Positions 39,201 to 45,200 of a DNA stretch of 52,886 nt are shown in pieces. Position 1 is the first letter of the stretch. The number at the start of each line of letters is the position of its first letter. Position numbers: made by a program. The DNA comes from Girardia tigrina (Eukaryota). Location: NCBI GenBank assembly GCA_001938485.1, contig MQRK01238444.1:1-52886 (forward strand). The letters are read 5' to 3'.

Positions 39201-42200
39201 TAGTTCTGTTAGGAATATTTTAAATTTAGTATGCTGAAATTGATATGTTAAATTTGTATGTTGAGTTTAGTACTTGGAAATGTGTTTCACGTACCCAGAT
39301 GGAAAATTTGTATTTTGGATGTTCTTGATGATTACTTGTTCGAACATGATTTAGATTTTAGATTACAACATAATATATTTAAAAATTTTACTATTAAAAA
39401 GAATTTATTAATTTTTATAAAGCAAATATTTTTAAAATGAATTTGTAAATCGATTAAGTAAACTTTTGAAAAAGAAATCATTTTAATAATTAAATAACTT
39501 TTAGATAAAATTATTGAAGAAATTATTAAACTAAAATTTTAAAAATTAAAATCAATGAAAATAATTTGAATGTATAAAATGAAAATTTGTTCGAATAATT
39601 GCTTAAAACTTTAAAAATTTAAAAAAGATTCATTATTAAAAATTTAGTTAAACTTCAAATGACGAAAGTTTTACTGATAATTTTCATGAAAACAACTCAA
39701 ACAGTTATCATAACATGTATGGAAAATTATATTATATTTTTAATAAATATATTTAAAAGACTATCACATACAAAAAGATAATTTCTGTCTTCAATCCAGT
39801 ACTTCAACTACCTAGTGCTTTCAATAAATACCCGACCTTATGTAAAAAATGTAATAGGAAGTTTTAGTTTTTTGTGTTATTAAATAAGTTAATATATGTT
39901 TTAATTTCAGTAATTGTTCTATTTTATTAAAAGCATTAATATTTTTGTGATATTTTGAATTATCTTCAGTGCGGTTATTTCAGACATCGAATATCTCAGA
40001 TTTATCAAGTTGTTTGTGTTGCAGAATAAGACATGCAGTAAAATCTAAGATCTTTTTTAGTCAACTTACATACATTACTTTTAATTTCAGATTCAAATGT
40101 TAAATATGGGCTCAGAGAGTTTAAAGGTGGTTGCACCTCAGATTTTGATCAAATATTCAGATTTGAAAAAAGAAATGTTTGACACAGTTGATGAACAATT
40201 GGAGAGGATGGTCATAGAAGAGTCACGAATTACCATGAAAATGGTGTCAACGAAGATCAACATCAATGTCGGTACAGCCCACGAGAAATTGAAATCCATG
40301 TGTATCAGAAAACCGTGCTCCAGATTCATACCCTGCTTCTTGATAAATGATATGATGCGAACCTGTGTGATTAGCTCGGTCAGACTTTTCTGGCAAATAT
40401 AATTACGGATGATGAAACCATACACAGCATGTATTTGCCTGAAACAGTGCATGAGTCAACAAAGTGGAAACTGCTTGGAGAGAAGTAATCTTTGAAGATG
40501 CGAACGGGACAAGGTATGGACTACCCTCTTCCGTATCAGCTTTCAGGCCTGTTGCACTGGCTTAGAGTAGTAATCACTTTTGATTGTTTTTCTGTCTTGT
40601 CAATGTTTGATTCTGAAGAGTCCAGAGCATTTTTACTTTCCTTTTTATCTTTTTGATCTTTTTGAATAAAATGATCAAAAAGATAAAAAAAAGTAAAAAT
40701 GCTCTGGACTCTTCAGAATCAAAAATTGACAAGACAGAAAAACAATCACAGATTCAAGATATCATAGGCTATGTATTAAAAGACAAACAATTTGAATTGA
40801 AAAAGGCTACAAATATCTACATTAATAACAATAAGAAAATGAAAAATAATGAATAAAAAACATTAAATGATGTAAGGAAAAAGGACACAATTATTACAAA
40901 ATTTGATAAAGGTAACGGCCTTGTCATACTTAACAAATCAGATTACATAAGTAAAATGAATGACATATTAGGAACAGATAAATTCAGTACATTAAGTTTA
41001 AAAGAAAAAAGTAAACCGTTACCAATGAAGAATGAAACCAAATTAAAGGATATATTAAAGCGTCTTCTTAAGAATAAAAGCATCGATCAGAAATTTGAAA
41101 AATTGTTTATATGCCAGGATTCACAACCAGCTAAATTGTATGGTTTAACTAAAATACATAAAGCTGGTCCTCCACTCCGCCCTGTTTTATCAATGATTGA
41201 CACAGTTCAGTACAAAGTCGCGGAGGTTCTTGATTCACTATTGAGTCCTTTAATTTCATATGATTTTGAGATTAGGGATAGTTTTGATTTCAAAGATTTC
41301 ATTTTGAATCAGGTACCGAAATGTGATTTTGAGTTTATGGTCTCATTTGATGTCTCCAGTTTATTCAAAAATGTACCTATCGATGAAACCATTGATTTGT
41401 GTGAAAAGATGTGGGATAACAACTCTAAATCTGTGAATAAAATAATAAACAAGCAGACACAGAAAGAACTTCTTAAATTTTGTGCCAAAAATGTACCTTT
41501 TCTATTTAATGATGAATGGTACATTCAGGAAGACGGTGTCGCAATGGGTTCCCCATTAGCACAAACTTTGGTATCAATAATTATGAAGTAGCTTGAGGAT
41601 AAAATGAATGCATACCCTGGTGAAAAACCTGTGTTATACAAGAGATATATGGATGATGTCTTTTTGGTTTTCAGAAATCAATCCCTCATAAAACCATTCC
41701 TAACATTCATGAATGGTCTTCATCTGAATATTAAATCCTTAATTCGATCAGGAAGACTCAATAGGACAAGAACAACTGTACCGAAGCTGATCAACGAGAG
41801 AGACAAACGTCACTGATGTCCAGTAGAAAGATGCTACAAAGAGTTTGCCGAAAAGAAGGAGTTGAACAGACACATGAAAGGGGACCACGCAGTGTCCACT
41901 TCCGCTAATCCTGATCAGCTCAATGAGATACAACAACAGCAATTGCCATTCCCATGTACACTATGCAAAAAGTCGTACAAAACGAAGGGGTGGCTGACCA
42001 GGNACCTCTACCGGGATCATAAATTGGAGGAGACAGAAGAAATTGGAGAACCGACAATGACACCAGCGCAAACCAGTACAACCACAGAAGAAAGAGTCGT
42101 AGAAAACCTCAACATTTCAGGCAACAAGACTCAATCCGTGACGGACCCCCCGACTATCTCGACGGTGGTGGAAGAAGCGATAGGTACTGAAGAAACACAT

Positions 42201-45200
42201 CTGACTTTTAGGATTGCAGATCTAACTGCAAGGGGGGGGTTCAGATTTCCCTTTCGTGGCTGTAGGAAGTCCATGAATACAGCCAAAGGTATGCAGAACC
42301 ATGGCTATACAACCCATGGGTGGTCGTTTCTCACAGGGAAGCCGAAAATATCTCGGAGACTGAAACTATCCGACCCCGTAGGTGGCCTATCGGGGGGCTG
42401 CTAGTGATTCTTTAGTTTGGGTGGACCGTCTAAAGAGCCTAGAGGCTCAATACCATTTGAAAGAGATGGGAGGCCCACATTGGAGAGACAAATCGTCATC
42501 TCAAAACCCGGATTAGTGAGCACTCGCAAATGAGTCGATCGAGTAGGGTTCTTGATCATTGGTTATGTTGTAAGGATAGAACCTCATCCATTTCAAAAGA
42601 TGAGTTTTCTATTCTACAAAAGGGATTTGATTCACATTACGAACGACAGTTTTGTGAATAAGACTAATAAGACACTACAACCCATCAATTAACATTCAGA
42701 ATGGGCAAAGTAAGGTTATTTCAATACTTAAAATTTTTAATTAAAATATTTTTTGCCATTATTACCCAATAATATTTTCATAAATAATAATTTTTTGTTA
42801 CCTTTTAAAGTAAATTATATCTATTAAAATTGTATTAAAATTGTATTATTCAAACAATTCAATATTCATTTACTAAACATCCGAAAATTGCTGATGATGA
42901 TGTATGTAAACATCGAAACATGTCTAATAATTATATAAAAAAAGCTTTAATCAAATTTTATTTTATTATATAAATATACATGGTTATCTTTGAAATACTT
43001 TAAACTTCCTTAATGTTGAAGATTGACTGTTTTGATCAATAATTCATTTTATAAATCAAGATTCTCTATATCTTAATCCATTCTTATTCTCTTAATCCTG
43101 CAACTACTCGCTACAATCCACCTTATCGACTTATAAATGAAAGGATTATACACTTTTTATATTTTGTATTGACACAAGCAAGCGTAGACCATAGAATTAT
43201 TTCAGAAAAGGAAACTTTATGAATTTCTTTTTTGCGACATACTGACATGAATATGTACACAGAAATTTCCGTAGTCGTCCAATATAGTCAATAGTACAAT
43301 GGAATAAAGAGTTATTTTTAATAATATATAATTATATATATATATATAACAATAAACAAATTATATTTTGAAAATATAACTTTCAAATATTTATAATAAT
43401 TAGCAAAGATTTTGCATGTATTAAATCTTTTTTTTATAAAAATTAAAAACAAAATTGCTGAAATCTAAAAAACCCCAACTCAACAGCGTCCTATGATTTA
43501 AAGACATGTTAGAACTTTACAATAAAATAAATAATAAATAAATAAATAAAACACGGAAAAAATACTTAACATTTAAAAAATATTCATTTTATATTTTATA
43601 AAAATTTTGTTCAACAACTAATTAAAAATTGGAAAGAAATTCACGAAATATTTGCTAAATCAACCCAAAATTCAATTAAATCATTGTTTTGACTTTAAAT
43701 GAAAACTAAATTAAATTAAATTAAATCACGAAATTTTAATTTATCGAGATGGGTTTTTTTCCCCGAAGTAAATACATCCTTTTATTGATTTTTAATTGTC
43801 ATTTATTAACAAAATTTGGAGTTAATTCAATTTCTTTTCACATCTTAAAATTTTAATTTGATTATACTTTAAATCAAAGAATCGTTATTTTGAAAGGAAT
43901 GAACGCCAATTTTAATGCTTTTCGCGGAATTTTATCTATCTTGATTGTACAGGTTTGGCTCAAAGGTTTCTGCCGAAATTTCAATAACAATTGAATATCA
44001 ACAAAGTATTTAATCATCAACGTCACATTAGTTTTCAAAATATTCACCATCATGCTCAATGCATCTTTGCCACCTTCATTTATAAATCAAGTGTTTGAAC
44101 CGCAACAAAGTTTTAACCGAGTACGTGACGTACAATAGTACGTACACGAGGACGTATGTTTTAACATCAAGTTTTGATAAAAAAGTGTTTTATTTTTCAA
44201 GTTCAGTAAATATTTTTAATTTTCAAAATTAAAATTTGATAAAAAAATTCGAAAATGTTATTGGAAATATTTGTTTTACATTTTAAGTATTACGTTGTTG
44301 CAAAAGGAATGAAAGTTTGGAATTTTTAATATTAAATGACTAAAGCATTTATGATGTTATAAGTCATTCAAAAGCTTAATTTATACTCTTTCAGGTATAT
44401 GTGTCTAAAACTTATTATAATATATATTTTGTTAATAATTTATATTTTAATTGCAGATGTCAAAACATGATTTTACTTCTATGAGTTCATGGAAGGGTGC
44501 AATGCAGCTCAAAACGCTCGAGACATCAACGAAGTTTGAGGCAAGGGAAGTGTCAACGAATCCACGATGCAGCGCTCGATCAGATTGTGAATTGTGATGA
44601 GAAGTTAATTCTCTATGACAATCGGCAACGGTAGGCACTATGATTGAACCGCAATGGGACAATTCTACATGAATCCGAAACTCCACCAAACGAAGGTTAT
44701 GGTTACTTTTTGGTGGTCTGCATCTGGTCTCATCAATCATAGCTTTTTGAATACCGGTGAAACGATCACCACAGAGAAGTACTGCCAACAGATTGATTAA
44801 ATGCATCACGAACTCCGACGTATGTGCCTAAAGTTGGTCAATATGAAGGGTTCAATTCTCCTCCATGACAACGCCCGGCCACACATCGCAAAATCGACCC
44901 TACGAAAGCTAAACAAATCGAACTACAAAACTCTGCCTCATCCATCTATCCTACCATCTTGCCCACCGAATACCATTTTTTCAGGAATCTGAACAACTTC
45001 CTCCAGGAAAAATGCTTCAAAAATCAAGATGACGCCAAAGACGTCTTTACCGCTTTCATCGCATTCAGAACTTAGTTCTACACTAGGAGCATCAATAAAC
45101 TCATGTCTCGTTTGCAAATATGTATTGATTATGATGGTTTTTATTTCGTTTAATAAAGTGTATTTTGTGCTGAGTTACATTTATTTTAAGTTTAGGTTCA

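What the first reader, a model, noticed from the sequence alone, without database searches (positions are those of the whole stretch)
41735..42475. Penelope element whose RT thumb/linker is replaced in frame by a triple zinc-finger module
Seen: the PLE RT stops right after ...MNGLHLNIK and the GIY-YIG resumes at HIGETNRHL (42476). The ~600 bp that separate these motifs in the PLE at 16940-17535 are absent, and ~730 bp of GC-richer DNA encoding three C2H2 fingers stand in their place. ORFs 40653, 40956, 41604 and 41862 share one reading frame, separated only by single stop codons, so RT and fingers are fused in frame. Known: PLEs do not normally carry C2H2 arrays, whereas R2-type (N-terminal) and Ingi/L1Tc-type (C-terminal) non-LTR elements do. 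Inference: this is a template-switch or recombination chimera between two retroelement classes, or a propagating hybrid family. In-frame joining has a one-in-three chance of being accidental.
Basis: partly seen in the sequence, partly recalled or inferred. Interest (0 to 1): 0.75.

Follow-up and report, generated by a model that had tools for sequence, protein, structure and literature searches.

The report
Dead LINE tail inside dead Penelope
The zinc fingers are the tail end of an ordinary LINE retrotransposon lodged in a decayed Penelope-like element where a stretch of that element was lost; this is common genomic debris, not a new hybrid element.

Summary
The Penelope-like (PLE) reverse transcriptase breaks off after its NIK motif. 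The GIY-YIG nuclease resumes near 42473-42479. About 740 bp of G+C-richer, finger-coding DNA lies between them, in the RT's reading frame.

The inserted 738 bp (41735-42472) is the 3'-terminal piece of an APE-type LINE:
- It matches the last 226 residues of P0269 (RT plus three C-terminal C2H2 fingers) at 207 of 226 aligned columns, up to that protein's own C-terminus.
- The LINE's own stop codons and about 65 nt of 3' untranslated sequence follow.
- The nuclease piece lies in a different frame.

Both PLE flanks belong to one family. They match P0149 at 232 of 260 and 84 of 88 columns. P0149 residues 261-448 (188 aa, 564 nt) are missing.

No hybrid was found in the protein sets:
- 0 of 148 finger-module relatives resemble a PLE, and 0 of 120 PLE relatives carry the fingers.
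- No database protein spans the junction.

Best reading: a 5'-truncated LINE insertion with loss of 564 bp of target. Both elements are pseudogenes. The in-frame join is a one-in-three accident. Copy number and read support could not be checked.

The parts
40581..40748 (.). Inverted repeat (72-nt arms, 92% complementary, 24 nt between) at the 5' end of the 5'-truncated PLE remnant
   Evidence: Passages of PMC8557442 describe an inverted 5'-truncated copy next to PLE insertions as typical.
40806..42741 (+). Remnant of one PLE ORF (RT, then GIY-YIG), given as one broken gene. It is 5'-truncated. It carries 2 premature stops, 1 frameshift, and 1 nested insertion with loss of 188 codons (thumb, linker and first half of the nuclease).
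   Evidence: tblastn outer bounds 40806-42741. Matches P0149 at 232 of 260 columns (5' piece) and 84 of 88 columns (3' piece). Relatives P0151 and P0158 carry Pfam RVT_1 plus GIY-YIG.
40806..41735 (+). PLE RT piece, ending with the NIK motif
   Evidence: Pfam RVT_1 is only weak for this copy (E 0.022), but it is 89% identical to P0149, whose RVT_1 match has E 2.1e-11.
41735..42472 (+). Nested 5'-truncated LINE fragment (738 nt). It holds the last ~224 codons of ORF2 with the three-finger C2H2 module, the ORF's own double stop, and about 65 nt of 3' untranslated sequence. Both junctions are uncertain by a few bases; the LINE alignment starts at 41730. Within the coding piece: 1 premature stop, 1 in-frame two-codon deletion relative to P0269, 1 lost zinc ligand, 1 unreadable codon (N).
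   Evidence: Matches P0269 at 207 of 226 columns, window 41730-42401, protein residues 470-695 of 695. P0001 has E 1.2e-57. Pfam on relatives: Exo_endo_phos plus RVT_1 plus C2H2.
42473..42741 (+). PLE GIY-YIG piece: second half of the nuclease from the 'IGET' motif to the ORF end. It lies in a different frame from the RT and fingers.
   Evidence: Pfam GIY-YIG is only sub-threshold for the fragment (E 0.14).

Best explanation
A dead, 5'-truncated copy of a canonical Penelope-like element (RT followed by a C-terminal GIY-YIG nuclease) was hit by an APE-type LINE whose ORF2 normally ends in three C2H2 fingers.

Only the last 738 nt of the LINE were installed, as is usual for such elements. This piece comprises the C-terminal fingers, the natural stop codons and a short 3' untranslated tail.

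The insertion came with, or was followed by, loss of the 564 bp of PLE that lay just upstream of the LINE's 3' attachment point.

Inferred mechanism:
1. Reverse transcription was primed at a nick in the PLE's nuclease-coding DNA (right-hand junction).
2. It ran back 738 nt along the LINE RNA.
3. The free cDNA end was joined to target DNA 564 bp further upstream instead of next to the nick.
4. The result is a target-site deletion instead of a duplication, as documented for human L1.

The shared frame of RT and fingers is accidental. Nothing here encodes a working protein. In their native LINE the fingers presumably bind nucleic acid, as the two C2H2 motifs at the 3' end of L1Tc do.

Shown: the identity, extent, orientation and decay of the three pieces, and the size of the missing PLE segment.
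Inferred: the order and mechanism of the events.
For: 1. The finger segment is the 3' end of a LINE.
- An exhaustive phmmer search gave 148 hits at E <= 0.001.
- I Pfam-scanned 16 of the 148. Fourteen were chosen because a single matched stretch, or the best stretch, lay at the protein's C-terminal end. Two were short proteins.
- 12 of the 16 have RVT_1, and 6 of those also have an Exo_endo_phos APE domain.
- None of the 16 has GIY-YIG.

2. The closest relative is P0269, which has RVT_1 and C2H2 by precomputed Pfam.
- It is identical at 207 of 226 columns.
- The match runs to its last residue, and the window has its stop codons at the same point.

3. The LINE homology starts within 5 nt of the end of the PLE's NIK motif. 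The whole 738 nt is therefore accounted for by LINE coding sequence plus about 65 nt of LINE tail.

4. Both PLE flanks match one protein, P0149, at 89% and 95%. They bracket residues 261-448.

5. No flanking direct repeat marks the LINE piece, as expected for an insertion with target deletion.

6. The combination is absent elsewhere.
- 0 of 148 finger hits match P0149, whole or its nuclease part, at E <= 10.
- 0 of 120 PLE relatives match the finger module.
- 0 of 120 PLE relatives have two or more C2H2 patterns.
- The 73-aa junction-spanning query found only P0149 (64% of the query) and P0269 (38%) among longer proteins, and nothing among proteins of similar length.

7. Literature.
- L1 insertion-mediated deletions and endonuclease-independent insertions with target deletions and junction microhomology: passages of PMC1920257.
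- C2H2 motifs at the 3' end of L1Tc with nucleic-acid chaperone activity: start of the abstract of PMC2805920 in the listing.
Against: - No DNA of the host genome, other copies or reads could be searched. Single-copy status of the junctions is therefore assumed, not shown.
- The protein-level searches for a junction-spanning relative are weak evidence. Pseudogene chimeras are rarely predicted as proteins, and the tool itself warns that finding none is weak evidence.
- I could not see where this LINE family's RNA normally ends. The 3' tail may be incomplete.
- The right-hand junction shows no tail repeat or poly(A).
- The LINE piece (92% to P0269) and the PLE pieces (89% and 95% to P0149) look about equally decayed. 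This does not show that the LINE arrived later. The comparators are not the source copies, so it says little either way.
- The window has assembly gaps and a single N inside the LINE piece. An assembly join cannot be excluded.
Confidence: 0.82

Rival explanations
1. Two separate events. The LINE first inserted normally into the PLE. A later, unrelated deletion then removed the LINE's 5' part together with the adjoining 564 bp of PLE.
For: The end product would be identical. The region is old and decayed, with stops, a frameshift and a small in-frame deletion in the pieces. Nothing marks the left junction as a retrotransposition junction.
Against: It needs one more event. 5' truncation is in any case the usual state of LINE copies. 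Insertion-linked target deletions are documented (passages of PMC1920257).
Confidence: 0.2
2. Template-switch chimera made during reverse transcription of PLE RNA. The PLE enzyme copied the 3' end of its own RNA and jumped to the 3' end of a LINE RNA. After 738 nt it jumped back to PLE RNA 564 nt upstream of where it left. The composite was then inserted as one unit.
For: The LINE piece starts at or near a LINE 3' end and is collinear and co-oriented with the PLE. The three pieces show similar decay. Passages of PMC8557442 note that PLEs sometimes retrotranspose host genes.
Against: It requires two jumps, the second back onto the first template. It predicts nothing that the simpler reading does not. 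No second copy or relative with the combination was found. The literature searches for PLE with C2H2, and for PLE with template switching and chimeras, listed no such case by title or abstract (listings only).
Confidence: 0.08
3. A propagating hybrid family: a PLE that uses LINE fingers in place of its thumb and linker.
For: RT and fingers share a frame. The replaced and replacing segments are of similar length (564 against 738 nt).
Against: - The LINE's stop codons and untranslated tail are retained between the fingers and the nuclease.
- The nuclease piece lacks its first half and lies in another frame.
- The RT thumb is gone.
- 0 of 120 PLE relatives carry fingers and 0 of 148 finger relatives carry PLE parts.
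- No junction-spanning protein was found.
Confidence: 0.02
4. Assembly artefact: reads from a PLE copy and a LINE copy were joined wrongly.
For: PLE arrangements are said to trouble short-read assemblies (passage of PMC8557442). The window has three 50-N gaps and one single N inside the LINE piece.
Against: Two false joins would be needed. They would have to return to the same PLE family, in the same orientation and in collinear order. No repeat shared between the pieces is present at the junctions to mislead an assembler.
Confidence: 0.04

Closest known systems
LINE-1 insertion-mediated deletions and non-classical (endonuclease-independent) L1 insertions in primate genomes (Han et al. 2005 and Gilbert et al. 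2002, seen only as references; Sen et al. 2007, PMC1920257, passages read)
   Same: A 5'-truncated LINE 3' end sits where target DNA has been lost. There is no target-site duplication. Microhomology at the 5' junction is possible: both parent proteins have the same residue, and the next codon may be partly shared, at the join.
   Different: The LINE clade, host and target (another retroelement) are different. The pre-insertion state is inferred from a protein relative, not from an orthologous empty site. The LINE's normal 3' terminus is unknown, so the classical and non-classical routes cannot be told apart.
Ingi/L1Tc and Vingi clades of APE-type non-LTR retrotransposons
   Same: The order is APE endonuclease, RT, then C2H2 fingers at the C-terminal end. 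L1Tc has two C2H2 motifs at its 3' end (PMC2805920, abstract start in the listing). No RNase H domain was found by Pfam in 0 of 7 long relatives. Vingi likewise lacks RNase H, according to a passage of PMC13708176.
   Different: There are three fingers here, not two. Clade membership was not tested by RT phylogeny. That Vingi elements carry C-terminal fingers is my recollection; no call confirmed it, and the Vingi paper PMC3002237 is not held.
Canonical C-terminal-EN Penelope-like elements (Penelope/Poseidon, Neptune, Nematis, Hydra clades; Craig et al. 2021, PMC8557442, passages)
   Same: The RT relatives carry a C-terminal GIY-YIG. The copy is 5'-truncated with an inverted repeat at its 5' end.
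   Different: The zinc-binding motifs known in PLEs are a CCHH motif inside the GIY-YIG core and a CX2-5CxxC linker motif, not classical C2H2 arrays. In this copy the part that would hold them is deleted. No hammerhead ribozyme was found.

Membership tests
Penelope-like element, C-terminal-EN type | RT whose relatives are single-ORF proteins with RT followed by a GIY-YIG nuclease | tested here: met
   322 relatives at E <= 1e-5 among 1906 candidates. P0149 matches at 232 of 260 and 84 of 88 columns. Pfam finds RVT_1 plus GIY-YIG in P0151 and P0158, that is 2 of 5 scanned; the other three show RVT_1 only.
Penelope-like element, C-terminal-EN type | Complete GIY-YIG core with the CCHH motif, its two cysteines lying between GIY and YIG (PMC8557442) | tested here: not met
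   In this copy the first half of the nuclease lies in the missing 188 residues. The remaining half scores below Pfam's cut-off (E 0.14). Relative P0149 has the whole domain.
Penelope-like element, C-terminal-EN type | 5' truncation with direct or inverted pseudo-LTR arrangement | tested here: met
   Inverted repeat at 40581-40748. PLE homology starts at residue 197 of the 775-aa relative P0150. No direct pLTR was seen.
Penelope-like element, C-terminal-EN type | Hammerhead ribozyme in the terminal repeat | tested here: not met
   0 Rfam matches at gathering score in the whole window. The permissive scan of 40000-43600 gave only sub-threshold hairpin-type matches. The repeat region may simply be absent from this truncated copy.
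APE-type LINE with C-terminal C2H2 fingers (Ingi/Vingi-like) | Finger module homologous to the C-terminal end of proteins with APE endonuclease and RT | tested here: met
   All 13 LINE proteins tested by tblastn align only to 41622-42401 of the window, always with their C-terminal parts. 12 of 15 have exactly three C2H2 patterns in their last 240 aa.
APE-type LINE with C-terminal C2H2 fingers (Ingi/Vingi-like) | Placement of the RT inside the Ingi or Vingi clade by phylogeny with reference elements | not tested
   No named reference sequences of these clades came back from any search. Absence of RNase H in 0 of 7 long relatives fits Vingi only loosely.
LINE insertion with target-site deletion | LINE fragment that includes the element's 3' end and is 5'-truncated | tested here: met
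   ORF2 C-terminus, its stop and downstream non-coding DNA are present. Only the last 224-226 residues are kept, where related full-length proteins are 1127-1242 aa. Completeness of the 3' tail is not testable.
LINE insertion with target-site deletion | No target-site duplication; target sequence missing at the insertion point | tested here: met
   No direct repeat flanks 41735-42472 among the families shown (the 20 largest of 33). 188 residues of the PLE are missing by comparison with P0149.
LINE insertion with target-site deletion | Pre-insertion allele or orthologous locus that still holds the deleted DNA | not testable with these tools
   No collection holding the host genome or its relatives was open.
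   Stops lie within and between the pieces, and the nuclease is in another frame. 0 of 120 and 0 of 148 relatives show the combination. No junction-spanning protein was found. Genomic copy number is untested.

The most novel reading that the evidence does not exclude
The composite was made in one step by the PLE's own reverse transcriptase jumping onto a LINE RNA and back. Alternatively, it has been copied in trans as a non-autonomous chimera. Either would be a natural record of template exchange between two retroelement classes.
Probability: 0.08. Interest if true: 0.45.

Novelty: already known. Interest (0 to 1): 0.1.

Why it matters
It matters little in itself. Nested, truncated retroelement copies with local deletions are routine in repeat-rich eukaryotic DNA.

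The case is useful as a caution. An in-frame run of domains from two elements can look like domain shuffling when it is a pile-up of pseudogenes. A retained natural stop codon and 3' tail of the guest element are a quick way to tell the two apart.

If several dispersed copies shared the junctions, the case would become a modest example of chimera formation between PLEs and LINEs.

Tried and rejected
- I first suspected that the G+C-richer block ran on through the nuclease piece as one foreign unit, for example the front end of a PLE with an N-terminal nuclease (Naiad type; PMC8557442). Rejected: the nuclease piece is 84 of 88 identical to the C-terminus of the same relative that matches the RT piece.
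- I also read a possible 'GIY' half in another frame just upstream of the 'IGET' motif. Comparison with P0149 gives no support. That stretch is LINE tail.
- DNA self-comparison of 40000-43000 against the window found no second copy of either element's DNA.
- tblastn with P0269 found no other piece of that LINE in the window.
- Rfam gave nothing useful.
- The fold of the LINE's 3' end (42360-42472) is not clearly better than shuffles (z -1.88; 9 of 200 shuffles fold as well).
Names, accessions and cluster make-up of P0149, P0269 and others stayed unseen.
- The Vingi paper PMC3002237 is not held.
- The atlas search with P0269 gave only generic RT and finger clusters with hardly any taxa.
That collection holds only bacteria and archaea and cannot hold this locus.
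- I do not take the window for human. It has 24.5% G+C, and the named relatives of its PLE come from bdelloid rotifers and a hydrozoan.
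Full report
**What is there.** The window is very A+T-rich (24.5% G+C) and is repeat debris of a eukaryote.

Between 40581 and 42741 on the + strand lie three kinds of sequence. It is interrupted by three single stops and closed by a double stop.
- The first part of that frame is a PLE-type reverse transcriptase ending in the NIK motif at 41735.
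- The second part holds C2H2 fingers. Pfam zf-C2H2_4 scores 28.6 bits against a cut-off of 27, and zf-C2H2 scores 23.4 against 25.2.
- The second half of a GIY-YIG nuclease, starting with 'IGET' at 42479, lies in a different frame.

The two PLE motifs are 743 nt apart here. They are 591 nt apart in the other PLE remnant of the window. The intervening DNA is G+C-richer: 0.45-0.55 per 100 nt, against 0.27-0.38 in the RT piece.

**The finger segment.** I searched its 193-aa stop-free translation against 1.84 billion representative proteins.
- There were 148 hits at E <= 0.001, 20 at <= 1e-10 and 2 at <= 1e-30.
- Hits matching the whole query in a single stretch matched it with their C-terminal ends.
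- I Pfam-scanned 16 of the 148. Fourteen were chosen for such C-terminal matches and two were short proteins.
- 12 of the 16 have RVT_1, and 6 of those also have an Exo_endo_phos (APE) endonuclease upstream.
- None of the 16 has GIY-YIG, and none of the 7 proteins longer than 1100 aa has RNase H.

The module is therefore the normal C-terminus of an APE-type LINE ORF2. In 12 of 15 relatives examined there are exactly three C2H2 patterns in the last 240 residues. Two have two and one has four.

A much closer relative turned up in the junction search. This is P0269, 695 aa, with precomputed Pfam RVT_1 and C2H2.
- It is identical to the window at 207 of 226 aligned columns.
- The match covers window 41730-42401 and protein residues 470-695 of 695.
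- The match runs to the protein's last residue, and the window has its double stop at that very point.
- The LINE match begins within 5 nt of the end of the PLE's NIK motif.

The roughly 65 nt from the stop to about 42472 match neither element's protein. They are best read as the LINE's 3' untranslated tail. No other piece of this LINE is in the window.

**The flanks.** The RT piece found 322 relatives at E <= 1e-5 among 1906 candidates, of which the best 120 are listed. Named hits come from bdelloid rotifers (Rotaria, Adineta) and the hydrozoan Hydractinia.

The closest relative, P0149 (536 aa), runs from the RT through thumb and linker to a full GIY-YIG domain.
- The window's 5' piece matches it at 232 of 260 columns.
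- The 3' piece matches it at 84 of 88 columns.
- Both flanks therefore belong to one PLE family, and most simply to one copy.
- P0149 residues 261-448 have no counterpart in the window (188 aa, 564 nt). The missing part holds the end of the RT, the thumb, the linker and the first half of the nuclease.

Pfam finds RVT_1 plus GIY-YIG in 2 of 5 relatives scanned (P0151, P0158). The other three show RVT_1 only.

The PLE is also 5'-truncated. Homology starts at residue 197 of the 775-aa relative P0150. It is capped by an inverted repeat with 72-nt arms that are 92% complementary, at 40581-40748. Craig et al. 2021 describe this arrangement as typical of PLE insertions (PMC8557442, passages).

**State of the genes (counts only).**
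- PLE ORF: 5' truncation, 2 premature stops, 1 frameshift, and 1 nested insertion with a 188-codon loss.
- LINE ORF2 piece: only the last 224-226 residues are kept, where relatives run to 1127-1242 aa.
- The LINE piece also carries 1 premature stop, 1 in-frame two-codon deletion relative to P0269, 1 lost zinc ligand and 1 codon unreadable because of the window's single N. The N was left as it is.

**Is it a hybrid element?** Four results argue against.
1. The guest brings its own stop codons and tail, which lie between the fingers and the nuclease.
2. The nuclease remnant lacks its first half and is in another frame. The RT has no thumb.
3. Local phmmer found no overlap between the two families.
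   - 0 of 148 finger-module hits have any similarity to P0149, or to its nuclease part, at E <= 10.
   - 0 of 120 PLE relatives have any similarity to the finger module.
   - 0 of 120 PLE relatives have two or more C2H2 patterns.
4. A 73-aa query spanning the left junction found only P0149 (covering 64% of the query) and P0269 (38%) among longer proteins. It found no candidate among proteins of 40-128 aa.

The fourth result is weak evidence, as the tool itself warns. Genomic copy number could not be examined at all.

The passages I read in Craig et al. name a CCHH motif inside the nuclease core and a CX2-5CxxC linker motif as the zinc-binding motifs of PLEs. 'C2H2' does not occur in that paper's text. 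Searches for 'Penelope-like' with 'C2H2' (10 papers), and with 'template switching' and 'chimeric' (6 papers), listed nothing that describes such an element by title or abstract (listings only).

**How it most likely arose.** The layout has four features: a 3'-terminal, 5'-truncated LINE piece; a precise right-hand end; no flanking direct repeat (which shows the 20 largest of 33 repeat families); and target DNA missing on the LINE's 5' side. This is the layout of LINE insertions that delete target DNA instead of duplicating it.

Such events, and the related endonuclease-independent insertions at breaks, are documented for human L1. They include 18 non-classical loci with target-site deletions, and microhomology at the junctions (PMC1920257, passages). 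Han et al. 2005, Gilbert et al. 2002 and Symer et al. 2002 were seen only in that paper's reference list.

At the left junction both parent proteins share a residue, and the following codon may be partly shared. A few bases of microhomology are therefore possible. Without LINE DNA this stays inference.

I cannot separate a one-step insertion-with-deletion from an insertion followed by a later deletion. I cannot exclude a double template switch during PLE reverse transcription, nor an assembly error. My weights are in the rival explanations.

The in-frame join with the RT has a prior chance of one in three. Together with the shared orientation it is one in six.

**What the fingers do in their native element.** By analogy only, they bind nucleic acid. 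The C-terminal protein of the L1Tc LINE has two C2H2 motifs and nucleic-acid chaperone activity (PMC2805920, start of the abstract in the listing).

The architecture (APE, RT, C-terminal fingers, no RNase H) resembles the Ingi/Vingi group. A passage of PMC13708176 says that Vingi, the sister clade of Ingi, lacks RNase H. Clade membership was not tested. That Vingi carries such fingers is my recollection only.

**What stayed unchecked.**
- Read support and genomic copy number of the junctions.
- The LINE family's normal 3' end.
- The host's identity.
- Names and cluster members of the relatives (could not be made).
- The supplements of the papers, which were not opened. Supplementary figures S2 and S7 of PMC8557442, which align PLE nuclease and linker domains, might show rarer linker variants.
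- The metagenome and viral collections, which were closed.
- The bacterial and archaeal genome collection, which was not scanned because it cannot hold this locus.

No spliced model was involved. I do not take the window for human.

**Verdict.** The feature is ordinary: a dead LINE tail nested in a dead Penelope-like element with a 564-bp loss. Interest is low.

Noticed in passing
window 40581-40748: Near-perfect hairpin (72-nt arms, 92% complementary) capping the truncated 5' end of the PLE remnant. It draws many sub-threshold miRNA-precursor matches in Rfam, which look like a generic hairpin effect.
   Followed up: partly
window 40097-40402 (+), within a G+C-richer block at about 40100-40580: A 101-aa ORF whose nearest language-model clusters are SETMAR/HTH_48-type (score 0.94). 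This is a lead for the N-terminal helix-turn-helix of a mariner-type transposase. Pfam gives only a weak HTH_24 match (E 0.094).
   Followed up: partly
window 13370-13700 and 16475-17779 (+): Two further decayed PLE remnants of a different family, 33-50% identical to the same relatives. They share no DNA similarity with the PLE at 40806-42741.
   Followed up: partly
window 42370-42472; C-termini of P0001, P0002, P0269: The last ten or so residues of the LINE ORF2 are almost unchanged between relatives that are only 48-60% identical overall. This hints at a constraint on the RNA's 3' end as well as on the protein. The predicted fold of 42360-42472 is not clearly better than shuffles (z -1.88).
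   Followed up: partly
whole window: No Rfam family reaches its gathering score anywhere in the 52.9 kb, and no hammerhead ribozyme lies near any of the three PLE remnants. There are three 50-N gaps and one single N.
   Followed up: no
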